DNA of 64,000 nucleotides from Escherichia phage vB_EcoM_TH18: sequence record ON075799; one strand, 5' to 3'. Position numbers and translations under genes: made by a program. Shown here in pieces: positions 18-34,908 of this stretch. Position 1 is the stretch's first letter. Every line of letters starts with the position of its first letter. The notes under the pieces were generated by a model. That model had not been told where the DNA came from and did not search any database. It was given only the letters and a program-made list of their open reading frames with translations.

Positions 18-94
18 TGGTGTGACGGACAGGATTCGAACCTGTGACCACCTAGTCTTCAGCAAGGCACTCTACCAACTGAGTTACCGTCACA
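18..94 (-). tRNA. tRNA-Phe (anticodon GAA)
   Basis: Hand-folded cloverleaf on minus strand: 7-bp acceptor, D-stem actc/gagt, anticodon loop CTGAAGA, T-loop GGTTCGAATCC, CCA encoded. Confidence 0.75.
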
Positions 95-98
95 TAAT

Positions 99-175
99 TG
101 GTGGGCGATGAGGGACTCGAACCCCCAAAATTCAGGTTCTAAGCCTGACATGTATACCAATTCCATCAATCGCCC
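99..175 (-). tRNA. tRNA, anticodon UAG (Leu-like decoding) but short variable loop; atypical
   Basis: Minus strand: acceptor gggcgat/atcgccc, anticodon stem tcagg/cctga with loop CTTAGAA, T-arm with TTCGAGT loop, CCA encoded; type-I length (77 nt) despite Leu-type anticodon. Confidence 0.55.
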
Positions 176-189
176 ATCTATATTAACAG

Positions 190-381
190 TTATGGTTTTC
201 CACGATACACAGAAATAGTTTTCCCATTAGCATTGATAACATAAGCGGTCTGATCCTCAGACAAAAACACTTTTTGATCAATGCCGGAAATAGCTATAGA
301 CTTTTGATGAGCACAATACCCAACAATTTTCCCACAAAAAATTTGTTCATCATTTGGAGAGACGACTTTAACTGTTAACAT
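190..381 (-). CDS. hypothetical small protein (63 aa; ORF 190-462 trimmed to internal ATG)
   Basis: Internal ATG at 381 preceded by AGAGGA; the longer ORF would overlap tRNA-Pro. Confidence 0.4.
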   Translation of the reverse strand: MLTVKVVSPNDEQIFCGKIVGYCAHQKSIAISGIDQKVFLSEDQTAYVINANGKTISVYRGKP

Positions 382-423
382 GGTATCCTCTGTACATTTC
401 TGCTTTGATATGTTTATGTTTGT

Positions 424-501
424 TGGTCTGTCCGGTTGGATTTGAACCAACGACCTGGTCATCCCAAGTGACCCGCGCTACCCAAGCTGCGCTACGGACA
501 G
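424..501 (-). tRNA. tRNA-Pro (anticodon UGG)
   Basis: Minus strand: acceptor ctgtccg/cggacag, D-stem gcgc/gcgc, anticodon stem ggtca/tgacc loop CTTGGGA, T-loop TTCAAAT, CCA encoded. Confidence 0.75.
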
Positions 502-585
502 AGAAATGTAGATTTTAATTGTCCCAGAATCTACTAACTGGTATCGCTGGCTAGGTGATATCTGTGACTTGATTAAGTCAAGAAT

Positions 586-677
586 TGGCGGTTCCTGAAG
601 GATTCGAACCTTCGGTGGGGAGATTCATTCCCAACGGCTTAACAGGCCGTCACCATCGACCACTCGGTCAAAGAACC
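586..677 (-). tRNA. tRNA, type II-like (long variable arm), anticodon loop CTGTTAA (GUU?); identity uncertain
   Basis: Minus strand: acceptor ggttctt/aggaacc, anticodon stem acggc/gccgt, extra stem-loop ggga-atgaatc-tccc, T-arm gaagg-TTCGAAT-ccttc, CCA encoded; 92 nt. Confidence 0.5.
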
Positions 678-686
678 TGAATATTT

Positions 687-763
687 TGGTGGATCTGGTT
701 GGGGTCGAACCAACAATCTCTCGATTAAAAGTCGAGTGACTTAAACCATTTGGCTACAAATCC
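687..763 (-). tRNA. tRNA-Lys (anticodon UUU)
   Basis: Minus strand: acceptor ggatttg/cagatcc, anticodon stem ctcga/tcgag loop CTTTTAA, T-arm gttgg-TTCGACC-ccaac, CCA encoded. Confidence 0.7.
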
Positions 764-780
764 GTTAAATTATCTTTAAA

Positions 781-810
781 ATAGCTAATTACTCGCACAT
801 AATTAGCTAT
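781..810. repeat. perfect 10-bp-stem hairpin (atagctaatt / aattagctat) in inter-tRNA spacer
   Basis: Exact inverted repeat with 10-nt loop read directly from sequence. Confidence 0.6.
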
Positions 811-996
811 ACGCAACAACTCTCCAAGGAGAGCACACTAATGATCGATTACGATTATATGACTAAATTTAGACCATCATAAGTGTTTGGCTTACGCCAG
901 TAAAGAGCGGACTGCTCTGGGGTATCGGTAAGATGGTTGCAGCCATCTACCGAAAAATCACACCAAGCAACTAAACAAGCTACATTAAAGATAACT

Positions 997-1085
997 TGGA
1001 GGAGGCTGACAGAATCGAACTGTCACCATATCTCTACAGCGGGACTGGGTTCAAACCAGCTTGTGCACCATGCACCCCAGCCTCC
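997..1085 (-). tRNA. tRNA-Ser (anticodon UGA)
   Basis: Minus strand: acceptor ggaggct/agcctcc, anticodon loop TTTGAAC, long variable arm, T-arm gacag-TTCGATT-ctgtc, CCA encoded; 89 nt. Confidence 0.7.
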
Positions 1086-1156
1086 AAAGATAGCCTCTGC
1101 CGAGGATATACACCCAACAAAGGAGGCGCTCAGGTCAGAAGAAATCTGAGCCTTAA

Positions 1157-1250
1157 TGGAGGAAGATGCCAGACTTGAACTGGCACACCCATTTCTGGGT
1201 TACTATCTCCTTAGCAGGGAGATCCCTTACCAAATTAGGGTTAATCTTCC
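1157..1250 (-). tRNA. tRNA-Ser (anticodon GCU)
   Basis: Minus strand: acceptor ggaagat/atcttcc, anticodon stem tctcc/ggaga loop CTGCTAA, long variable arm, T-arm gccag-TTCAAGT-ctggc, CCA encoded. Confidence 0.7.
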
Positions 1251-1271
1251 AATACCTTAGTAATTAAAAAC

Positions 1272-1361
1272 TGGTGGAGAAGGAGAGAATCGAACTCTCA
1301 AGCCGTTTTACCAGTCAGCACATTTCCAATGTGCTTTCGTCGCCAATCGATTTGCTTCTCC
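1272..1361 (-). tRNA. tRNA-Ser (anticodon GGA)
   Basis: Minus strand: acceptor ggagaag/cttctcc, anticodon stem gcaca/tgtgc loop TTGGAAA, long variable arm, T-arm gagag-TTCGATT-ctctc, CCA encoded. Confidence 0.65.
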
Positions 1362-1370
1362 GTTTTAACT

Positions 1371-1446
1371 TGGCAGGGGATGGTTGATTCGAACAACCGA
1401 TCACGGGGTCAAAGCCCGTTGCATTAGGCCACTATGCTAATCCCCT
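1371..1446 (-). tRNA. tRNA-Gln (anticodon UUG)
   Basis: Minus strand: acceptor aggggat/atcccct, D-stem gcat/atgc, anticodon stem acggg/cccgt loop CTTTGAC, T-loop TTCGAAT, CCA encoded. Confidence 0.7.
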
Positions 1447-1452
1447 TTTGCA

Positions 1453-1527
1453 CGAGAGTGAGGAATAGAACCTCTTAGTCACTGGTTTTGGAGGCCAGCC
1501 TTCACCCAGTGAAGTTACGCTACTCTC
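1453..1527 (-). tRNA. tRNA-Trp (anticodon CCA)
   Basis: Minus strand: anticodon loop CTCCAAA, T-arm with TTCTATT loop, acceptor gagagt/actctc; CCA not encoded. Confidence 0.6.
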
Positions 1528-1535
1528 ATTAAAAA

Positions 1536-2093
1536 CTATTTTCGAAAAGGACTTATGAAAAATGCCAACATCACTCTCTCTCTTGAAAAAGCTCTGTCTT
1601 CAGGAACCACACTCTTCAGTTTCCAACCGACATAAATTCGCCAGTAAAATTGTTTTCCAAACAATCTAAAAGACGGGACAAACGCGAATACACCCCACGC
1701 ATTGTCATTCCACATCAACAAATAGCCTTGTTGGTTATCCTCCACATCAGAGCTTACATGGAGGTTTCCTTTCCACTTTGTCACAGATGTGATTTCACGT
1801 CCAAGTACGTGATAGGAGAAATTGTAGGCTTTATTTCTCCACAACCAAGCAACTCGTTGTAGGTAAACACCAAAACTTCCTATTTTACGGACTTCTTCCC
1901 ATCTCTCTATGTGTCCTCTATCACCGTCTATAGGATTATCATATGTCTCCATCCACCTGAAAATATAAGGCAGATGCCCTGTCTTCTCATTATAGAACGG
2001 AACAACAAAAGGAGCCAGAATAACACAGAGAACCGACATAACTGGGTCAAGAGGTGCTAACAGGATCCACGATAAATATTTTAAGTATCTCAT
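1536..2093 (-). CDS. hypothetical protein (185 aa, aromatic-rich, hydrophobic N-terminus)
   Basis: Long ORF between tRNA sub-clusters; no recognisable motif. Confidence 0.5.
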   Translation of the reverse strand: MRYLKYLSWILLAPLDPVMSVLCVILAPFVVPFYNEKTGHLPYIFRWMETYDNPIDGDRGHIERWEEVRKIGSFGVYLQRVAWLWRNKAYNFSYHVLGREITSVTKWKGNLHVSSDVEDNQQGYLLMWNDNAWGVFAFVPSFRLFGKQFYWRIYVGWKLKSVVPEDRAFSRERVMLAFFISPFRK

Positions 2094-2320
2094 GCAGGAT
2101 CAAGCCTAGATATAATGTACTGGTTTAAATCTGAATATGGGAAGATACTTTCAAAGATAACCTGTTTAAATCTGAAGCCGCACAAACCGAAAAGTACCTT
2201 CTGACACTCACCAAAAGAGCAATCTTTACCAACTTTTATCACAACCGTATCGGCAATCTGCACACTTTCTATCTCTTTAGATTCATGATGCCGTACTATG
2301 ATTACTTTAGAAACCATCAT
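2090..2320 (-). CDS. hypothetical protein (76 aa)
   Basis: ORF whose stop overlaps the start of the downstream gene by 4 bp (translational coupling pattern). Confidence 0.4.
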   Translation of the reverse strand: MMVSKVIIVRHHESKEIESVQIADTVVIKVGKDCSFGECQKVLFGLCGFRFKQVIFESIFPYSDLNQYIISRLDPA

Positions 2321-2445
2321 ACTCGTCCATATTAAAGCCTTCTACTAAAGATAGTAGATGTCTAGGGTTGGACCGCAAACGCAACCCCATGGAATTTGTT
2401 ACGGTCTTCAGTTGACCCAAGCGGATTTCATTGACATCTTTTAAC

Positions 2446-2520
2446 TGGAGCATCCAGAGGGTATCGAACCCTCGACTTCAGCTTGGAAGGCTGTAGTTTT
2501 CCCAATTAAACTATGGATGC
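2446..2520 (-). tRNA. tRNA-Gly (anticodon UCC)
   Basis: Minus strand: acceptor gcatcca/tggatgc, D-stem gttt/aaac, anticodon loop CTTCCAA, T-arm gaggg-TTCGATA-ccctc, CCA encoded. Confidence 0.7.
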
Positions 2521-2525
2521 ATATT

Positions 2526-2601
2526 TGGTGGGAGTGGTAGGCTCTGCCCCTACGTCCTCTCGATTATCGGTCGAGCGATCTACTAACTGATCTACACTCC
2601 C
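2526..2601 (-). tRNA. tRNA-Ile-like (anticodon GAU), atypical T-loop
   Basis: Minus strand: acceptor gggagtg/cactccc, D-stem gatc/gatc, anticodon stem ctcga/tcgag loop CCGATAA, T-stem gtagg/cctac but loop GGCAGAG lacks TTC; CCA encoded. Confidence 0.5.
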
Positions 2602-2665
2602 AAACTGTACTGGCCCAACAACCACGATTGGAGGGTATCGTCACACATCAAAGCCAGTACAGTTT
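2602..2665. repeat. 13-bp-stem hairpin (aaactgtactggc / gccagtacagttt, 38-nt loop) filling the spacer between two tRNAs
   Basis: Exact inverted repeat read from sequence; no T-loop, so not a tRNA. Confidence 0.55.
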
Positions 2666-2669
2666 TAGT

Positions 2670-2759
2670 TGGTGTGCCGTGATAGAGTCGAACTACCCGA
2701 GTCCCTTTCGAGACAGGAGATTTACAGTCTCCCCCGCTACCCCTACGGTCTAACGACAC
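2670..2759 (-). tRNA. tRNA-Tyr (anticodon GUA), type II
   Basis: Minus strand: acceptor gtgtcgt/acggcac (one G-U), anticodon stem ggaga/tctcc loop CTGTAAA, long variable region, T-arm ggtag-TTCGACT-ctatc, CCA encoded; D-arm irregular. Confidence 0.6.
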
Positions 2760-2760
2760 A

Positions 2761-3108
2761 TTAACCTTGTTTGAATTGAACAATATCCGTCGAGAACGGT
2801 TTAGCTGCCTTAATAGGTGCTTTTTCTGAGTTATCTTTTTCGAGTAACTCTTCGTTTTCCTCATCAAAGTAATCAGAAAGCATCTGCTCACCTTTCTCAA
2901 TAACATAACGAGCTATATTTTCTCTGATATTGTCTTTTGTATTCACATTCTTCATCAAATCCCTAAGAACCTGATGAGCTTCAGGAATCATTGCAATCAG
3001 ATTCGTTTTTAAATCTAGGATATTTTTCTCTAACTGAATTGCATTAGATTCCTCTTTCAGAGGACGACCTTTTCCTCTTCTACGTTTTGTAAGCTGCTTA
3101 GTAGCCAT
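2761..3108 (-). CDS. hypothetical protein (115 aa from internal ATG; acidic C-terminal half)
   Basis: ORF 2761-3333 trimmed to the Met at 3108 because the upstream part overlaps tRNA-Cys. Confidence 0.45.
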   Translation of the reverse strand: MATKQLTKRRRGKGRPLKEESNAIQLEKNILDLKTNLIAMIPEAHQVLRDLMKNVNTKDNIRENIARYVIEKGEQMLSDYFDEENEELLEKDNSEKAPIKAAKPFSTDIVQFKQG

Positions 3109-3193
3109 TTTAAAACCCCACTTAATGATATTATCAAATAAAAACATATCTGTCAAGTGGTATTTTAACATATTTACCAAGAAATTGAAAGTT

Positions 3194-3270
3194 TGGAGCA
3201 CGGTGTCGGACTTGAACCGACATATATCTGTTTTGCAGACAGATCCGTAACCAAATTCCAGCAACCGTGC
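3194..3270 (-). tRNA. tRNA-Cys (anticodon GCA)
   Basis: Minus strand: acceptor gcacggt/accgtgc, anticodon stem tctgt/acaga loop CTGCAAA, T-arm with TTCAAGT loop, CCA encoded. Confidence 0.7.
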
Positions 3271-3356
3271 AATAAGTACCCCAGGTAGAGAACCTATAGA
3301 GTGGGTCTTACGAGCCGCGCTGACGATTCTCAAGTTGGGGTTAATCTGGTCGAGGA

Positions 3357-3433
3357 GACAGGATTCGAACCTGTGACCTACGGCTTAGAAGGCCGCTGCT
3401 CTATCCAACTGAGCTACACCCCGAAAATAAGAA
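3357..3433 (-). tRNA. tRNA-Arg (anticodon UCU)
   Basis: Minus strand: canonical D-arm tagctcagttggatagagc, anticodon stem gcggc/gccgt loop CTTCTAA, T-arm acagg-TTCGAAT-cctgt, CCA encoded. Confidence 0.7.
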
Positions 3434-3623
3434 TGCTTTATAGTGTATGGTTACTCAACCTCACTCCAACTTCCACAGTTGGTGCTCTACGAGCATGACT
3501 ACGTTTGAAATCAACGTTGCGCACCGATAGCTTTCTCACGCATTGTATGCCTCATTCCCAACAAATGCTGATCAGACATTTATATCGAATAATATAAGCT
3601 AATACACTATAAAACAAACTTGT

Positions 3624-3720
3624 GGCTGGGTGATGGAATCGAACCACCTATGTATTCAACGGCTTCCCCGTCTATTTTCAGGATTATAAATCCTCGCCCT
3701 TGCCAAAGGGCTTACCCAGC
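3624..3720 (-). tRNA. tRNA-like gene, unusually long (about 97 nt); anticodon loop TTTATAA (UAU?) with about 30-nt insertion before the T-arm
   Basis: Minus strand: acceptor gctgggt/acccagc, D-stem gccc/gggc, 4-bp anticodon stem agga/tcct, extra hairpin acgg-ggaag-ccgt, T-arm ggtgg-TTCGATT-ccatc; CCA not encoded. Confidence 0.4.
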
Positions 3721-3722
3721 AT

Positions 3723-3797
3723 TGGTGCTCGCAGCAGGTTTCGAACCTGCAACCCCCTGCTTACAAGGCAGGTGCTCTACCGTTGAGCTATACGAGC
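3723..3797 (-). tRNA. tRNA-Thr (anticodon UGU)
   Basis: Minus strand: acceptor gctcgta/tgcgagc, D-stem gctc/gagc, anticodon stem cctgc/gcagg loop CTTGTAA, T-arm gcagg-TTCGAAA-cctgc, CCA encoded. Confidence 0.75.
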
Positions 3798-4162
3798 AAT
3801 AAGACATTGCTTCCGATTAACAGCCTTGAGGCTTTACAGACCATATCTTGTGAGCCATAACCTGTGCCAAGGATTTCAGATGATAAACGAAATTTTATCT
3901 TTCAAGAGTCAACTTTCAAGTTTCATCTTTTACATTTAACCATTGACCTTTATTGTATGAACTTTTACTTAGTGGAAACAACAAGGCATCTTCGTGTGCC
4001 TCGCTGCATCTATGTCCTGTATTATCCTCATACATATACGATACATGGTGGGGGATATTTAACCTCCAACCCCCAGGAGGCAAGATGATGTAAACTTCGT
4101 TAATCAAAAGCAATGTTTTAAATTTCAAAACAAAGGAACGATAATGATATTATCAGAGCCTT

Positions 4163-4810
4163 TTAGAGAGAGTGCTCAATCTCAATTTCTGTCTTAGCGT
4201 TTGACTCAGACAACGCAAAATCAACGTTAGACAAGAAATCTTCAATCTCTTCTTCAAGAGAACGAATCTTAGAAGCCAGTTCAAGAGGATCCACAACCGA
4301 TGGTGTGTTCATCATTCGAATAGGAGCTTCCACAGTCTTAATCTGCTCTGCATCTGGCGCTTTATCACGTTGGATATATGGCGCTCTTGCATTTTCAAGT
4401 TTATCTTCCAGAGATTTTTCTTCTTTTGCCAGAAGAAGCTGTGCAGAAGCACGCTGTGCACAAAGTTTGTTTAACAACTCTTGTTTAAAGCAAATCGTCC
4501 GTTTGCGTTCGATTGCCTCAGCAACTGTCATAGACACATTACCAATTTTGACAATTGTCTCAGCATTAGACTTAACAATTTTTGCTTTCAGTTCATCACG
4601 CACTGCCAAGAGGTCTTGCAGACTTTGATAGTCGTTGATCGCAGATTTCTTAAAATCATCAACAGAGCCGATATAACCCGGAATCTTACAATTATTCTCA
4701 GTTCCTTTTGCAATCTTAATACAATCAAGATTGTAGATACGCTTATTGATCTTATCTTCAATTTTAGAGATAGAAGCAAGTGCACGAGTTACGGAAATCT
4801 TAGTAGACAT
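4163..4810 (-). CDS. hypothetical protein (215 aa, predicted coiled-coil, K/E-rich)
   Basis: Long ORF; composition only. Confidence 0.55.
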   Translation of the reverse strand: MSTKISVTRALASISKIEDKINKRIYNLDCIKIAKGTENNCKIPGYIGSVDDFKKSAINDYQSLQDLLAVRDELKAKIVKSNAETIVKIGNVSMTVAEAIERKRTICFKQELLNKLCAQRASAQLLLAKEEKSLEDKLENARAPYIQRDKAPDAEQIKTVEAPIRMMNTPSVVDPLELASKIRSLEEEIEDFLSNVDFALSESNAKTEIEIEHSL

Positions 4811-4883
4811 GCGATCTCTCCTATGTAAATCAGCTTTGATAAAGTAACTATCCAGAAAAACAAAAACTATGTCAAGAAAAATT

Positions 4884-5075
4884 TTAATCTTTTACAGCAT
4901 CTTTTATAGAATCACAAAGATCTTGAACAACATCAGATGTCGGTGACAAAATCATCTCGTCGGCTGCTGCTATAGCATCTGATGCTAAATCAACAAACGG
5001 AGTTGTTACCGCAGAAGTCACTTCAACAGCCGTTATTGTTACTTCGCTTGCAATCTTAAGCAAAGATCCTATCAT
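4884..5075 (-). CDS. hypothetical protein (63 aa)
   Basis: Small ORF downstream of the tRNA-Met gene. Confidence 0.3.
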   Translation of the reverse strand: MIGSLLKIASEVTITAVEVTSAVTTPFVDLASDAIAAADEMILSPTSDVVQDLCDSIKDAVKD

Positions 5076-5151
5076 AATCTCAACCCTCCTGAATATCCGT
5101 GATTCCCTTTATTTAACGACGCTGGCTCACGGTGGCACTCTCGTCAATAAA

Positions 5152-5475
5152 CTATTTTTTAGTTTTCTTACCGTTTTCTACAGAAATGCTTGTTTTCTGT
5201 TTCGCTTCTCGTTCGCGCTTTGTTTTCCCAGTGCGAATACGATATGAAGCAGAAATAACTTCACCACCAATGACACGAGACACAGATTCGTAATACATTT
5301 CAGTATTACCGTCTTCATCTTTGCGTTTTTTCAGAACTGCTACAGTTTGCGTTTTACCACCAAGGCGCACATCGTGCGGTGCAGAATGTGTCTGCGTGGA
5401 TTTTGATCCAAACTGAAAAGGTTGCTTTATCGCCTCGATAGCTGACACCTTTTTAGCAGACTGTTTCTTAGCCAT
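5152..5475 (-). CDS. hypothetical basic protein (107 aa from internal ATG, Lys-rich)
   Basis: Internal ATG at 5475 preceded by GGAGG; Lys-rich termini. Confidence 0.45.
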   Translation of the reverse strand: MAKKQSAKKVSAIEAIKQPFQFGSKSTQTHSAPHDVRLGGKTQTVAVLKKRKDEDGNTEMYYESVSRVIGGEVISASYRIRTGKTKREREAKQKTSISVENGKKTKK

Positions 5476-5527
5476 TAAGTTTTCTCCTCCGAAAACAATA
5501 AACATAGTTTATTTCGTGTGCCACATT

Positions 5528-5604
5528 TGGTGGCCCCTGCTGGACTTGAACCAGCGACCAAGCGATTATGAGTCACCTGCTCTATCCAACTGAGCTAAGG
5601 GGCC
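5528..5604 (-). tRNA. tRNA-Met (anticodon CAU; elongator-type or Ile2-type)
   Basis: Minus strand: acceptor ggcccct/aggggcc (G1-C72 paired), canonical D-arm, anticodon loop CTCATAA, T-arm gctgg-TTCAAGT-ccagc, CCA encoded. Confidence 0.7.
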
Positions 5605-28375: not shown

Positions 28376-28657
28376 ATGACTGTAAAAATCCCTAAAGGTG
28401 GCAGACCAGATAGAAATGCATGTGACATGCGTGTAAGGGTAGGGAGAATGTGTCTAATTTATGGAATAACTTATCCACCAATGGTGCGACTTAATGGTAA
28501 AATATGTAAGGTCATCGACATACCAAAAGATAACACAACACGCTTCTTGTGCAAGGTCAAAGATGAAGAGAAGGTTTTTAACATCCCACACAAAAACCTA
28601 ACAGTTTTGGATCTTAATGACAACATTGTTATCTCTAAATACCGTTGTATAAGCTAA
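28376..28657 (+). CDS. hypothetical protein (93 aa); lone plus-strand gene inside the minus-strand block
   Basis: Own promoter TTGTCA-16-TAATAT (about 28312-28345), AGGAG ribosome-binding site, and a bidirectional terminator downstream. Confidence 0.45.
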   Translation: MTVKIPKGGRPDRNACDMRVRVGRMCLIYGITYPPMVRLNGKICKVIDIPKDNTTRFLCKVKDEEKVFNIPHKNLTVLDLNDNIVISKYRCIS

Positions 28658-28660
28658 CAT

Positions 28661-28684
28661 AAAAGCCCCGCATGGGGCTTTTAT
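28661..28684. terminator. bidirectional rho-independent terminator (AAAA-gcccc-gcat-ggggc-TTTT)
   Basis: Hairpin flanked by an A-run and a T-run, between convergent genes. Confidence 0.7.
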
Positions 28685-28686
28685 GT

Positions 28687-29490
28687 TTATTCAAAATCAT
28701 CAACACCACTATCGGTAAGGTTTTCTCTGCTTGAAGGTTTTGTCGAAAGAACTTGCTCAAGCAGAGAGGAAAATTTCTGCAAATTACTTACAGAAGAAGT
28801 ACCTGCTGCCATGGCAAGCATATCCACTTCTTTTTCGGTAGGTTGAGCCCAGTCTAGAAACATCTCTTTCATGTACAACGTTGATGACCCTATTGGTGTG
28901 GCGAGGTCAACCCTATCAGCATAGATCCAGAAAAGAACCTCTTTCTCTATACATACACACAAAGCAGCACCCAACGAGTATCCTGTAACGATGGATGGAT
29001 ATCTTGCAACGAGGATCTCGACATTCAGGTCATCCCAGTGAAATACAACACCCAAATACTTCATACCCACAATGTCTTCCACTGCGGGTTTTAGCTCCTC
29101 ATGGGAAGAAAGGGAGTCATAGTTAATATTCTTTATGAATTTAAGAACGTCTTGGCGGTTGTAGGCACAATCGTTATCACCTTGCTTCCAATAACCCCAA
29201 AATGAAGTCGATAAATTCAACCAAAAACTTGCAGTTGTCCCTAATGTCTCAGCCAGTTTTTCAGCCACATCTTCTGATACTTCTTCCATGTTATAAAGGA
29301 TGGTTCTCAACTTATTTACCGGTATACCAGATTTGTCGGCAAGATCATCCACACACCAACCTAATGGATCTAGATATTCGTGGATAATAACCTCACCTGG
29401 TGATACTGGTGCTCTTTCTTTTAACATTCTTGCTCCTCTATCTATATCAGAAAACCCTGCAAAGCAGCAGGGTTCTGTCACTCTTAACAC
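28687..29490 (-). CDS. HigA/XRE-type helix-turn-helix domain protein with about 170-aa C-terminal domain of unknown function
   Basis: N-terminal segment SPGEVIIHEYLDPLGW...IPVNKLRTILYN...AEKLAETLGTTASFWLNLST matches the remembered HigA-antitoxin helix-turn-helix pattern. Confidence 0.55.
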   Translation of the reverse strand: MLRVTEPCCFAGFSDIDRGARMLKERAPVSPGEVIIHEYLDPLGWCVDDLADKSGIPVNKLRTILYNMEEVSEDVAEKLAETLGTTASFWLNLSTSFWGYWKQGDNDCAYNRQDVLKFIKNINYDSLSSHEELKPAVEDIVGMKYLGVVFHWDDLNVEILVARYPSIVTGYSLGAALCVCIEKEVLFWIYADRVDLATPIGSSTLYMKEMFLDWAQPTEKEVDMLAMAAGTSSVSNLQKFSSLLEQVLSTKPSSRENLTDSGVDDFE

Positions 29491-29687
29491 TTAGGTGAGC
29501 ATTTATCGCACGAACATGAAATTCCGTGGAAACACAATCCTGTCCCGTCTTTCTTGACCCCTGTTCCACCACACTGGGGACAACTATCGTGTAAACATTT
29601 TGTTTTTGTTGTCTCCTCTTTATCTTTATTAAAGAGGTTTTTCATAATCATTTTCTGTTGTTCAATCGTAAACATTTGCGTCCCCAA
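29484..29687 (-). CDS. Cys-rich small protein (67 aa, zinc-finger-like)
   Basis: C-x2-C and repeated Cys pairs (CPQCGG ... CFHGISCSCDKCSPKC). Confidence 0.45.
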   Translation of the reverse strand: MGTQMFTIEQQKMIMKNLFNKDKEETTKTKCLHDSCPQCGGTGVKKDGTGLCFHGISCSCDKCSPKC

Positions 29688-29968
29688 AATCTTTCAAGTG
29701 CTTCTGCCTCTTCCATGTTCGGGAAGATACCGTAGAAACAGAACTTACCTTTAGAGAAGTACGGAATAAATACCCGCCCATCACTGGTTTCAAACATCTT
29801 ATCAAAATTTGGTAGCTTCAGGTGTGATTTTATAGCCTCTTTAATACTTTTATCCCATTGATGCTGCCATTTACAGGCTTTTAGGTATTCACTAATATTG
29901 TAAGAACCTACTCTCCTCAAAATACTGGTGAGAAACTTTTTGTTTTTACGAATAATCTTCTTTTTCAC
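29648..29968 (-). CDS. hypothetical protein (106 aa); paralog of 29946-30251
   Basis: Shares N-terminal MKKK(I/L)xRxNKxFL(T/S) with the adjacent gene. Confidence 0.5.
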   Translation of the reverse strand: MKKKIIRKNKKFLTSILRRVGSYNISEYLKACKWQHQWDKSIKEAIKSHLKLPNFDKMFETSDGRVFIPYFSKGKFCFYGIFPNMEEAEALERFWGRKCLRLNNRK

Positions 29969-30251
29969 TCAAAAGCCTCATTTCTTCAAACTGCTCTGGT
30001 GTCAATAAACTTGTTCCTACACGACTGCCATTACCACACATAAGAGGTACGGCAATCATATGGCTATCCTTTTCTGCATTACCTAAATCAAGGTACTCCC
30101 CATAACGTTTGATAAGTCGAATGCTCATTTTTGAATTAGCTAAAGCCCTTGTGTTATAGAGATAATCCTCAAGGTACAAATGTAGATCGTTTGCCACCTT
30201 TAAAGATTTTGATAAGAATAATTTATTACGCCGTGCCAGTTTTTTCTTCAT
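29946..30251 (-). CDS. hypothetical protein (101 aa); paralog of 29648-29968
   Basis: Tandem duplicate by N-terminal similarity. Confidence 0.5.
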   Translation of the reverse strand: MKKKLARRNKLFLSKSLKVANDLHLYLEDYLYNTRALANSKMSIRLIKRYGEYLDLGNAEKDSHMIAVPLMCGNGSRVGTSLLTPEQFEEMRLLSEKEDYS

Positions 30252-30444
30252 ACACCCCTCGCTTGTGCCTGTACATTGCCAGAGGCCATACAGAACTCAC
30301 TATAAAGCATTTCCATGCCCAACCCCATGCAGTTTTTGGTGCATAGACCTGTTCAAGTGTTTTACTATTCTCCATCTCTGCGGTATGCACAAACCATACC
30401 GCAATATACAATGTAACTGTAATGTAGATAAAGCTATTAATCAT
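30226..30444 (-). CDS. small membrane protein (72 aa)
   Basis: Hydrophobic segments. Confidence 0.4.
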   Translation of the reverse strand: MINSFIYITVTLYIAVWFVHTAEMENSKTLEQVYAPKTAWGWAWKCFIVSSVWPLAMYRHKRGVYEEKTGTA

Positions 30445-31498
30445 TCATCTTATCCCAACACATTTGTTGCGCTGTCATCAAGACGTCAGCAGCAAAATCA
30501 AGGTCTGTTGACTTCGGTAAATGCGTGCTCTTGTACAGAGTGTTACGAATATAATCATCCTTCTCTTCTGCCCAAGCCAAGAGCTTCTCCAAAGACCATG
30601 CACCATTCCTGATTGCAAGAAGCTCCTGAGCATCAGGTCTTTTTACTAAGACTTTACCTTCTGCTAGGATCTCCTCAGCCATACGCATCAATCTTACCAA
30701 ATGGAGAGCATGTTTGCAATCGTACCCGTACTTTTCTTCTAAGTCATGCCGAACCAGATTTCTGTTTTTAACCCATGCCCAGTAGTTCTTATGTTTTTCC
30801 TTTGCTTGTTTATGCTCCTCTGCCAGATATTTAACAATTAAAATTGGCTTACGTCTCTTATCCTCGTCAGAGAACTGCTCGTAAGGAACTTTACGAATAG
30901 AACCATCAGAGTTAAACAAGCCAGCATTGTCGTGTGTTCCGATCACGCCATAGATATTATCACCCATGGGTAAAAAGACACACAACTTGTTAAGATCATC
31001 CAACATTTTCTGGAAGTCTTTGTGTTTTGTAAGATTATCATCCATCCACGAGTGTGTCAAGCGCATGAACTCTTTTTGTGTTGGTTGCTCTTTAGGTTGC
31101 GGGTTATTAATCCATTTATTATGGCCTTTGATACGCTTAAGTTGCGCCATCGCATACCCAGAAAAAGTAAAAGCAACTTTGCTGGATAGGAGTTTTGGCG
31201 CTTGCTCGCGTAGGTACTCGTAAACATCTGAAGTTTGCAGAATGTCACCTCTATCAACAAACATAAGCTCGATGATGTTTGGGTTCATATCAACGAACAA
31301 CTTCATGTAGTTTGTTAGCTCATACAGCTTACCATCCTCTTCATCAATAAGGGTCATTTCTCTGTCAACGAAAAATGGGGTAAGAATGCTTTTAGGCTCT
31401 GCACAATAAATTCCGCGAATATCCACATCGGATGTTGGTAAGTTAGTTCCATATGCAATGCTGCCGGAGTAACAGCGCATTAGTTCTAGTTTCTTCAT
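30437..31498 (-). CDS. nucleotidyltransferase-fold protein (Pol-beta superfamily, GS...DxD motif), 353 aa
   Basis: N-terminal YSGSIAYGTNLPTSDVDIRGIY matches the minimal nucleotidyltransferase signature; substrate unknown. Confidence 0.5.
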   Translation of the reverse strand: MKKLELMRCYSGSIAYGTNLPTSDVDIRGIYCAEPKSILTPFFVDREMTLIDEEDGKLYELTNYMKLFVDMNPNIIELMFVDRGDILQTSDVYEYLREQAPKLLSSKVAFTFSGYAMAQLKRIKGHNKWINNPQPKEQPTQKEFMRLTHSWMDDNLTKHKDFQKMLDDLNKLCVFLPMGDNIYGVIGTHDNAGLFNSDGSIRKVPYEQFSDEDKRRKPILIVKYLAEEHKQAKEKHKNYWAWVKNRNLVRHDLEEKYGYDCKHALHLVRLMRMAEEILAEGKVLVKRPDAQELLAIRNGAWSLEKLLAWAEEKDDYIRNTLYKSTHLPKSTDLDFAADVLMTAQQMCWDKMND

Positions 31499-31857
31499 TC
31501 TCGTACCTTTGTGCTTTTTCTTACATTATCCCAAAAATCAAGGATATTTTGGTATCGGATCTTGTCTTCCATATATTCAGCCTCATCACGAAGATCGCAT
31601 ACATGGTCTATTAAGGCACACACTTCATTATAGTGTTCTGTATCACTTGTGATGTGCTTAATCATACAAGATCCTGCTTTCCACTTTGAAAGTGAGTATC
31701 TCAGATTATCATCTTTCTCTGTGGGGGACGCGTCAACTAATATTTTTGCCTTATTGCCTTTTATCTTTTGTACCACCCCTCTGCGCAATTCATTATTACC
31801 CCAATAGATAAATACTGTATCGCCAACAAACAGTTTTGTTCCGCTTGCGTCTCTCAT
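31495..31857 (-). CDS. hypothetical protein (120 aa)
   Basis: ORF coupled to the downstream gene. Confidence 0.5.
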   Translation of the reverse strand: MRDASGTKLFVGDTVFIYWGNNELRRGVVQKIKGNKAKILVDASPTEKDDNLRYSLSKWKAGSCMIKHITSDTEHYNEVCALIDHVCDLRDEAEYMEDKIRYQNILDFWDNVRKSTKVRE

Positions 31858-34562: not shown

Positions 34563-34873
34563 ATGTTCATATAATTAACAATATCTTTTATGGTTCTCTT
34601 GCCGTCCAGTGGATAAACCATGTCATCGCTCATCCCACCGTGTTTTAGCATTGCTACCAGCCTAGTATATACCCCTTTTGGTCTTTTGCAAGTTCTTTTC
34701 TTCCATTTATGACCGTCTGGGGAGTACTCCTTATCTTCAAGAGAGATATGAAGTATATCTCCTATAAACTCTTTTGCCTGTGTGCTGTAAAGTGGACGGT
34801 AGAATATGTAGAATTTCATCGCTTGCTCCTTTGTTGTAATAACAATACCAGTGCAAGCCACCTGTGTCAACAC
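34547..34873 (-). CDS. hypothetical protein (108 aa or shorter)
   Basis: ORF only. Confidence 0.45.
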   Translation of the reverse strand: MLTQVACTGIVITTKEQAMKFYIFYRPLYSTQAKEFIGDILHISLEDKEYSPDGHKWKKRTCKRPKGVYTRLVAMLKHGGMSDDMVYPLDGKRTIKDIVNYMNMWVKK

Positions 34874-34908
34874 ATAAAGAAAAACCCGCTAAAAAGCGGG
34901 TTAATCTC

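What the first reader, a model, noticed from the sequence alone, without database searches (positions are those of the whole stretch)
29484..30251. Tandem paralogous small genes followed by a Cys-rich zinc-finger-like protein
Genes 29946-30251 and 29648-29968 share an N-terminal MKKK(L/I)xR(R/K)NKxFL(S/T)xxL(K/R) segment and then diverge, indicating a recent tandem duplication. They are followed by a 67-aa protein with eight or more Cys in C-x2-C arrangements. Diversifying duplicated genes in an early region often encode host-interaction factors.
Basis: seen in the sequence. Interest (0 to 1): 0.45.

Follow-up and report, generated by a model that had tools for sequence, protein, structure and literature searches.

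The report
Old duplicated phage genes plus zinc mini-protein
Two neighbouring small genes of an E. coli phage share a strongly basic first 20-30 amino acids left over from an old duplication, and are followed by a widely conserved zinc-binding mini-protein; all three are real genes, of unknown function, and otherwise ordinary.

Summary
The window is an Avunavirus (Vequintavirinae), 100% identical to Escherichia phages 18-1-2/19-1-2/24-2-1 and 93% to Av-05. All three genes exist on the minus strand, with ribosome-binding sites and dN/dS of 0.04-0.40.

**A/B similarity.** It is real but confined to residues 1-18 (up to about 32 at profile level).
- It beats composition-matched shuffles (at most 2 of 20,000).
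- Among 2,917 candidate N-termini in Av-05, each protein is the other's clear best match.
- The DNA there is only 28/60 identical and synonymous sites are saturated, so the duplication is old, not recent.
- Beyond residue ~32 nothing is significant; only gene length and low-confidence predicted secondary-structure order agree.
- No positive selection was seen.

**Distribution.** A and B occur only in Avunavirus-like phages. They fill a slot that holds an unrelated acidic ~57-aa protein in other genera.

**Protein C.** It has 8 Cys and 2 His and is unrelated to A and B. It belongs to phrog_17149, found across Vequintavirinae and in one lambdoid-like contig. It carries one DnaJ/anti-TRAP-type CxxCxGxG knuckle but meets no curated family threshold.

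**Context.** A, B and C end a ~5.4-kb unit bounded by a σ70-like promoter and a conserved hairpin. The unit also encodes the CCA-adding enzyme and an RlaP nucleotidyltransferase.

Function is unknown; interest is low.

The parts
29946..30251 (-). Gene A, 101 aa, basic (pI 9.2). Ortholog of Av05_0060 and member of phrog_12809.
   Evidence: ORF. Annotated in Av-05. phrog_12809 E 1.6e-33. dN/dS 0.28-0.40. GAGG ribosome-binding site 5 nt upstream of the ATG. pI.
29648..29968 (-). Gene B, 106 aa, GTG start, very basic (pI 10.0). Ortholog of Av05_0059. Not annotated in the 100%-identical record OK136181.
   Evidence: ORF. Annotations. dN/dS 0.21-0.31. GAGG 7 nt upstream of the GTG. One ortholog (P0004) carries an in-frame 4-codon deletion. 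Exhaustive HMMER search finds only its own family.
30192..30251 (-). Codons 1-20 of A: the shared cationic N-terminal module (net charge +8).
   Evidence: 18 of 20 columns are invariant among A orthologs.
29909..29968 (-). Codons 1-20 of B: the shared cationic N-terminal module (net charge +9, amphipathic as a helix).
29484..29687 (-). Gene C, a Cys/His-rich mini-protein. It is 63 aa from the ATG at 29675, or 67 aa from the TTG at 29687. Ortholog of Av05_0058 and member of phrog_17149. Candidate ligands are C27, H29, C32, C35, C48, H50, C54, C56, C59 and C63 (numbering of the 63-aa form).
   Evidence: tblastn finds it in 152 phage records. phrog_17149 E 9.7e-24. Family alignment. dN/dS 0.04-0.28.
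29452..29475 (-). Terminator-like hairpin (9-bp stem, 6-nt loop, then UUCU), 8 nt after C's stop codon. It ends the transcription unit.
   Evidence: Centroid fold energy -15.5 kcal/mol. The stem is invariant and only the loop varies in three genomes. The rule-based scan missed it because part of the T-run lies inside the stem.
30226..30444 (-). Upstream flanking gene, a 72-aa small membrane protein (phrog_11850). It is conserved across Vequintavirinae and marks the left edge of the variable slot. It overlaps A's start by 26 nt.
34842..34870 (-). σ70-like promoter (TTGACA-17-TATTGT with TG), directly after a terminator at 34883-34902. This is the putative start of the ~5.4-kb unit whose last cistrons are A, B and C.
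   Evidence: Terminator, promoter and RBS are almost invariant in three genomes: only two variable columns, one of them just upstream of the second promoter hexamer.

Best explanation
**Origin.** A and B are real, translated, lineage-specific paralogs. They were produced by an old tandem duplication in the Avunavirus lineage. The duplication sits in a variable slot between a conserved small membrane protein and the conserved zinc mini-protein C.

**What remains.** Only the first ~20-30 residues are still recognisably alike. This is a strongly cationic (+8/+9), predicted helical segment, and selection holds it at the protein level while the DNA has diverged to saturation. The rest of each protein has diverged beyond detection. 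Both keep the same length and the same predicted helix-helix-hairpin-helix order.

**Protein C.** C is unrelated to A and B. It is a member of a widespread uncharacterised phage family. It most likely binds two zinc ions through C/H pairs and contains one DnaJ/anti-TRAP-type CxxCxGxG knuckle.

**Expression.** The three genes are the last, translationally overlapping cistrons of a unit running from a σ70-type promoter to a hairpin. The unit also encodes a CCA-adding enzyme, a hydrolase and an RlaP-family nucleotidyltransferase.

**Inferred function (not shown).** A and B are small basic accessory proteins. Their common N-terminal helix docks them to the same polyanionic or protein target, most plausibly RNA/tRNA or DNA. 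Their divergent bodies supply different specificity. C acts as a zinc-stabilised protein- or nucleic-acid-binding module.
For: - **Genes real:** ORFs and ribosome-binding sites; dN/dS below 0.4 in three genomes; orthologs in every relative that covers the locus.
- **Shared N-terminus significant and unique:**. The control comparison is negative.
- **Old event:** 28/60 nt identical and no DNA repeat.
- **Same junction design:** in memb72→A and A→B the downstream gene is in the +1 frame, with 26- and 23-nt overlaps. The upstream TAA is formed by the CGT-AAx codons of the motif.
- **Same predicted secondary-structure order:** A is H2-38, H41-50, E66-71, E77-83, H85-100. B is H2-20, H25-32, H40-50, E68-72, E75-80, H85-95. 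Agreement peaks at 74% at offsets 0 and -1.
- **Profile hit:** B hits A's PHROG at 1.4e-4 over residues 1-72.
- **Slot replacement:** other genera carry an unrelated acidic 56-58-aa protein there.
- **C family and ligands:**. 8 of 13 members give weak Anti-TRAP hits.
- **Transcription unit:**
- **Charge:**
Against: - Beyond residue ~32 there is no significant sequence similarity. The local score is below the shuffle mean, and hydropathy correlation gives P 0.3-0.5.
- HMMER reciprocal E-values are only about 0.05 in a search of 4,120 segments.
- The AF2 models are poor (pLDDT 47 and 56).
- Foldseek with B's model against BFVD retrieves only B's ortholog and no A-family model.
- A frameshift allele that destroys B's C-terminal half occurs on 74 contigs, so B's body may be dispensable.
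- No tool result bears directly on function. Nucleic-acid binding is inferred only from charge and from operon neighbours.
Confidence: 0.6

Rival explanations
1. Partial (module) duplication. Only the gene-start junction plus the first ~20-30 codons was copied or recombined onto an unrelated ORF. A and B would then share a functional N-terminal tag but not a common body.
For: Detectable similarity ends at residue 18-32. No structural match of B's model to any A-family model. The two junctions have the same overlap design.
Against: The two proteins have nearly equal length and the same predicted order and position of secondary-structure elements. B aligns to phrog_12809 over 72 residues. The permissive hhalign alignment is collinear over 84-90 columns and includes LxLxNxxK and (I/V)x(V/I)P. 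All of these are weak.
Confidence: 0.25
2. Chance or convergence. Lys-rich N-termini are common in phage genes, and both starts are constrained by overlap with the upstream gene. On this reading the likeness does not reflect common ancestry.
For: Composition-adjusted BLASTP sees nothing. HMMER with bias correction gives only E ~0.05. The first ~8 codons of each are dual-coding.
Against: Order-preserving tests with local composition give at most 2 of 20,000. The motif runs to residue 18, well past the 23-26-nt overlaps. Among 2,917 N-termini the pair stands far apart from all others. No third copy exists in 121 kb plus the 64-kb window. The two genes are adjacent.
Confidence: 0.07
3. One reading: recently duplicated, diversifying host-interaction factors in an arms race.
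For: The slot is variable between genera. A is the fastest-evolving gene of the block, with 72-86% aa identity against 94-97% for C. The family is restricted to one genus.
Against: Gene-wide dN/dS is 0.2-0.4, not above 1. The duplication predates all known relatives and synonymous sites are saturated. No host partner or defence link was found in any library.
Confidence: 0.15

Closest known systems
phrog_12809 (uncharacterised phage protein family containing Av05_0060)
   Same: A matches over its full length (E 1.6e-33). B matches its first 72 residues at E 1.4e-4.
   Different: No function is attached to the family. B is not a clear member. Relatives are found only in Avunavirus-like phages.
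phrog_17149 (uncharacterised Cys-rich mini-proteins of Vequintavirinae: Mydovirus, Seunavirus and others)
   Same: C matches at E 9.7e-24. It sits in the same syntenic position after the RlaP nucleotidyltransferase and the small membrane protein. The core KCLHDxCPxCGGTG...CFHG..C.C.KC is invariant.
   Different: The Avunavirus C is shorter (63-67 versus 76 aa) because the linker before the Cys-rich core is shorter. Function is unknown for the whole family.
Anti-TRAP (PF15777) and the DnaJ cysteine-rich CxxCxGxG zinc knuckle
   Same: C contains one exact CxxCxGxG (CPQCGGTG). 8 of 13 family members give weak Anti-TRAP hits, best E 0.027. Like anti-TRAP, C is a ~60-aa protein dominated by a zinc motif. 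From my own knowledge, anti-TRAP inhibits a host RNA-binding protein by direct binding.
   Different: The hits are below Pfam's threshold, and the window's own C gives none. The PDB profile search gives E 6.8 for anti-TRAP. C has extra C-x-H pairs that suggest a second metal site. DnaJ has four CxxCxGxG repeats; C has one.
Arginine/lysine-rich N-terminal arms of small phage regulators (for example lambda N-type ARM peptides)
   Same: A and B carry a very cationic N-terminal ~20 residues on a ~100-aa phage protein expressed from a σ70-type promoter. This is a resemblance from my own knowledge only.
   Different: No sequence similarity was tested or found. No boxB-like RNA partner was identified, and Rfam shows nothing in the region. 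This is a functional analogy, not membership.

Membership tests
Tandem paralog pair (gene duplication) | Statistically significant sequence similarity between the two products | tested here: met
   Met for residues 1-18/32 only. Not significant for the remainder.
Tandem paralog pair (gene duplication) | Adjacent, same strand, similar length, reciprocal best match in the genome | tested here: met
Tandem paralog pair (gene duplication) | Shared three-dimensional fold | tested here: inconclusive
Recent duplication | Residual DNA identity and unsaturated synonymous sites between the copies | tested here: not met
   28/60 nt identical and 1 of 9 synonymous third positions shared. No direct DNA repeat.
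Genes under diversifying selection | dN/dS above 1 between orthologs | tested here: not met
   A 0.28-0.40 and B 0.21-0.31, pairwise NG86 on three genomes. Site-specific tests are not possible with so few sequences.
phrog_17149 (for C) | Significant match to the family profile | tested here: met
   E 9.7e-24, residues 6-63.
DnaJ cysteine-rich domain (PF00684) | Repeated CxxCxGxG motifs and a match to the Pfam model | tested here: not met
   C has one CxxCxGxG only. No Pfam hit at E up to 1-10.
Anti-TRAP (PF15777) | Match above the Pfam gathering score | tested here: not met
   Best E 0.027 in 8 of 13 relatives and none for the window protein. PDB 3lcz gives E 6.8.
Antitermination protein Q (the name a UniRef source gives to relative P0016) | Match to a Q-family model | tested here: not met
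   No Pfam, NCBIfam or PDB match to any Q family. The name appears only as a source label.
Zinc-binding protein (for C) | Bound zinc with four ligands per site | not testable with these tools
   Only inferred from invariant C27, H29, C32, C35, C48, H50 and C59 and near-invariant C54 and C56.
GIY-YIG nuclease (for B) | Match above threshold covering the catalytic motifs | tested here: not met
   15.2 bits against a cut-off of 22.6, covering only profile positions 43-70 of 78.
Phage_XkdX (PF09693) (for the C-terminal half of A) | Match to the Pfam model | tested here: not met
   A gives no XkdX hit. hhalign to one XkdX protein (L025) gives P 3.6e-5, but that protein was picked by a search seeded on TPEQFEE.

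The most novel reading that the evidence does not exclude
The shared cationic N-terminal helix could be a dedicated targeting module. It would bring two different effector bodies (A and B) to the same RNA or enzyme of the co-transcribed tRNA-repair set (CCA-adding enzyme, RlaP nucleotidyltransferase). C would act, anti-TRAP-like, as a zinc-stabilised inhibitor of a host RNA-binding or defence protein. Together this would be a small, genus-specific counter-defence add-on to the conserved Vequintavirinae RNA-repair operon.
Probability: 0.08. Interest if true: 0.5.

Novelty: new member of a known kind. Interest (0 to 1): 0.2.

Why it matters
Practically, it adds three small points:
- Gene B is missing from the annotation of at least one identical GenBank record (OK136181).
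- It documents a clean case where an old phage gene duplication keeps only a cationic N-terminal module.
- It defines the ligand pattern of a conserved but unstudied zinc mini-protein family, found across Vequintavirinae and in at least one lambdoid-like contig.

None of this opens a long-standing question. It would become interesting only if the N-terminal module or protein C were shown to target the host or the neighbouring RNA-repair enzymes.

Tried and rejected
**Searches that gave nothing useful**
- BLASTP of A versus B: nothing significant.
- Pfam, NCBIfam and PDB sequence searches for A, B and C: no hit above threshold.
- Exhaustive HMMER search of 1.84 billion proteins with the B profile: only B's own family, plus a spurious Sushi-repeat eukaryotic protein, P0017.
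- Word-indexed search of 5.8 billion proteins: only close Avunavirus relatives.
- IMG/VR, metagenome and GTDB genome scans with the A profile: close relatives only, except the seeded XkdX hit.
- Rfam on 27-36 kb: nothing near threshold.
- Literature searches on Avunavirus and on Vequintavirinae early genes: nothing on these genes.

**Structure attempts**
- AF2 models of A and B have low confidence.
- Foldseek against BFVD finds only B's ortholog.

**Ideas tested and dropped**
- Hydropathy cross-correlation beyond the N-terminus: not significant.
- A or B descending from the acidic slot protein of other genera: hhalign P 0.2-0.3.
- Programmed frameshift or readthrough fusing A and B. B is +1 relative to A in the window and in Av-05. 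It is in frame after a TGA only in L006. The arrangement is therefore not conserved.
- RHH-like and AP2-like readings of the sequences. These were pattern impressions only, with no tool support, so they are not claimed.

Full report
**What the window is.** Megablast of 28500-31600 gives 100% identity to Escherichia phages 18-1-2, 19-1-2 and 24-2-1, and 93% to Escherichia phage Av-05. These are Vequintavirinae, genus Avunavirus. In Av-05 the three genes are annotated as hypothetical proteins Av05_0060 (A), Av05_0059 (B) and Av05_0058 (C). In the 100%-identical record OK136181, B is not annotated at all.

- On the minus strand, A is 29946-30251 (101 aa).
- B is 29648-29968 (106 aa). Its GTG is the first codon after an in-frame TGA.
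- C is 29484-29687 (67 aa from TTG) or 29484-29675 (63 aa from ATG).
- Each start is preceded by a GAGG/GGGGA-type ribosome-binding site.
- Consecutive genes overlap: memb72/A by 26 nt, A/B by 23 nt, B/C by 28 nt.
- Pairwise dN/dS between the window, Av-05 and an Avunavirus-like contig in an E. coli assembly (L006) is 0.28-0.40 for A, 0.21-0.31 for B and 0.04-0.28 for C. Neighbouring genes give 0.10-0.33. All three are therefore protein-coding and under purifying selection.
- A is the fastest-evolving, at 72-86% aa identity.

**Is the A/B similarity more than chance?** Composition-adjusted BLASTP finds nothing. Other tests do:
- An unadjusted Smith-Waterman alignment scores 52 over residues 1-18. 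None of 5,000 whole-protein shuffles reaches that.
- Shuffling only the N-terminal segment keeps its Lys/Arg richness. The observed score is then reached in at most 2 of 20,000 trials.
- Profile-profile comparison of the two ortholog families gives P 2e-5 and 77% probability over 32 columns. The acidic slot protein of other genera, used as a control, gives P 0.2-0.3 against either family.
- In six-frame HMMER searches of all of Av-05 plus the window (4,120 segments), each family's best non-self hit is the other, at E ~0.05.
- No third copy of the motif exists.
- An anchored comparison of residues 2-20 with all 2,917 candidate N-termini of Av-05 puts B far ahead for A (40 versus next 22) and A far ahead for B (50 versus next 19).

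The similarity is therefore specific, not just low complexity.

**How far does it extend, and how old is it?**
- Beyond residue ~32 there is no significant sequence signal. The local score for residues 21-end is below the shuffle mean. Hydropathy cross-correlation gives P 0.3-0.5, although its best offset is 0.
- A permissive hhalign alignment is collinear over 84-90 columns, including LDLGNAEK/LKLPNFDK, IAVP/VFIP and C..G. Its posterior confidence is low.
- B matches A's PHROG profile over residues 1-72 at E 1.4e-4.
- The AF2 models are poor (pLDDT 46.8 and 56.4) but give the same order of elements at the same positions. A is H2-38, H41-50, E66-71, E77-83, H85-100. B is H2-20, H25-32, H40-50, E68-72, E75-80, H85-95. 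Secondary-structure agreement peaks at 74%, at offsets 0 and -1.
- Foldseek against BFVD returns only B's Av-05 ortholog (TM 0.88) and no A-family model.
- At the DNA level the shared 20 codons are 28/60 identical. Only one of nine synonymous third positions at identical residues matches. No direct repeat links the genes.
- Every relative that covers the locus carries both genes: Av-05 and the contigs L006, L007, L008 and L020-L023.

The duplication is old, so 'recent' is not supported.

**Junction anatomy.**
- In both memb72→A and A→B, the downstream gene lies in the +1 frame.
- In both, the upstream TAA is formed by the CGT-AAx codons of the R(R/K)N motif.
- This fits a duplicated unit that included the overlapping start junction. 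The A-rich codons force much of the resemblance, so it is weak evidence.
- In L006 a 1-nt deletion ends A eight codons earlier, at a TGA directly abutting B's GTG. A's last eight residues are therefore not conserved, and no recoding event fusing A and B is conserved.

**Distribution and slot.**
- A and B have relatives only in Avunavirus-like phages.
- Across Vequintavirinae the order RlaP nucleotidyltransferase, ~70-aa membrane protein, slot, Cys-rich protein is conserved. In Mydovirus and Seunavirus the slot holds an acidic 56-58-aa protein, plus a 51-aa one in GAP31. These are unrelated to A and B.
- A and B are basic (pI 9.2 and 10.0). Their first 20 residues carry net charge +8 and +9. 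B's segment is clearly amphipathic as a helix (μH 0.61, P 0.036), and A's less so.

**Protein C.**
- tblastn finds C in 152 phage records of Klebsiella, Salmonella, Cronobacter, Erwinia and other hosts.
- It matches phrog_17149 at 9.7e-24.
- The family alignment shows invariant K26, C27, L28, H29, D30, C32, P33, C35, G36, G37, T38, G39, K42, C48, F49, H50 and C59. C54 and C56 are near-invariant.
- A relative in an unrelated, lambdoid-looking IMG/VR contig (L016) keeps the same core but lacks the last Cys.
- The pattern is C-x-H, C-x2-C, C-x-H, C-x-C-x2-C. I infer two metal sites from it.
- CPQCGGTG is an exact DnaJ/anti-TRAP-type CxxCxGxG.
- 8 of 13 members give sub-threshold Anti-TRAP hits, best E 0.027, but the window protein gives none.
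- The PDB profile search has no significant hit. The best are L32 at E 0.063 and weak zinc-ribbon-like matches.
- The label 'Antitermination protein Q' on one relative has no support.
- With the TTG start, C's N-terminus (MGTQMFTIEQQK) aligns without gaps to MSYGLLTPEQAK of the 76-aa homologs. The true start therefore remains open.

**Transcription context.**
- A terminator (34883-34902) is followed by a σ70-like promoter, TTGACA-17-TATTGT with TG, at 34842-34870. An AAAGGAG ribosome-binding site follows. All are almost invariant in three genomes.
- Eight nucleotides after C's stop lies a 9-bp hairpin followed by UUCU, at 29452-29475. Its stem is invariant and its loop varies.
- Between promoter and hairpin lie a 90-aa ORF, a CCA-adding/HD enzyme, small membrane proteins, a hydrolase, DUF7205, the RlaP nucleotidyltransferase, memb72, and then A, B and C.
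- A, B and C are thus the last cistrons of a ~5.4-kb unit that could be read by host RNA polymerase. 'Early' is plausible but untested.

**Interpretation.**
- *Shown:* the genes are real; the N-terminal likeness is specific and reciprocal; the event is old; selection is purifying; the pair is restricted to one genus; C belongs to a wide family; the promoter and terminator motifs are conserved.
- *Inferred:* whole-gene rather than module duplication (about 0.55 versus 0.25); two zinc sites in C; nucleic-acid or host-factor binding through the cationic helix.
- No tool result addresses function.
- The finding is a tidy but ordinary example of phage accessory-gene turnover.

Noticed in passing
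L006 3716-5815 (also L020-L022); corresponds to window 30437-31498: In several relatives the RlaP nucleotidyltransferase gene encodes 699 aa instead of 353. A 346-aa insertion lies between ...EEKYGYD and CKHALHLV.... It begins CYSFDTEF and ends SLHGN, which is intein-like, and it has a weak LAGLIDADG_3 hit (E 5e-4, 20.7 bits against a cut-off of 22.5). The window's copy lacks it.
   Followed up: partly
L020 1501-1806 (protein P0006); corresponds to window ~29790: A 1-nt deletion at about codon 60 of B (TTTCAAACA to TTTC-AACA) replaces B's C-terminal half with 41 out-of-frame residues. This exact allele is on 74 contigs from ERR321xxxx runs, so B's body may be dispensable in that population.
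   Followed up: partly
L006 6270-6290; window 29960-29975: In the E. coli-assembly contig a 1-nt deletion makes A end at a TGA directly before B's GTG. This puts A and B in the same frame, separated by one stop codon.
   Followed up: yes
window 29648-29968: Gene B is not annotated in the 100%-identical GenBank record OK136181 (phage 18-1-2), although it is annotated in Av-05 and is under purifying selection.
   Followed up: yes
L016 2411-2614: A 67-aa protein with the same KCLHDSCPQCxGTG...C.H...C.C.KC core as C sits in an unrelated 13.6-kb IMG/VR contig, among small Cys-rich ORFs that resemble a lambdoid nin-like region. The zinc module is therefore not confined to Vequintavirinae.
   Followed up: partly
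L025 2094-2246 versus A residues 53-92 (window 29976-30095): A's C-terminal half (YLDLGNAEKDS...LLTPEQFEEMR) resembles a 50-aa Phage_XkdX family protein (hhalign P 3.6e-5, 49% identity over 35 columns). The hit came from a search seeded on TPEQFEE, and A itself does not hit the Pfam model.
   Followed up: partly
window 18-5604: A cluster of 15 tRNA genes lies on the minus strand: Phe, Leu, Pro, Asn, Lys, three Ser, Gln, Gly, Tyr, Cys, Arg, Thr and Met.
   Followed up: no
window 28687-29427: Directly downstream of the terminator is a 246-aa protein with an N-terminal HTH (phrog_1381, 'plasmid antitoxin with HTH domain', E 1e-85). No toxin-like partner gene was looked for.
   Followed up: no
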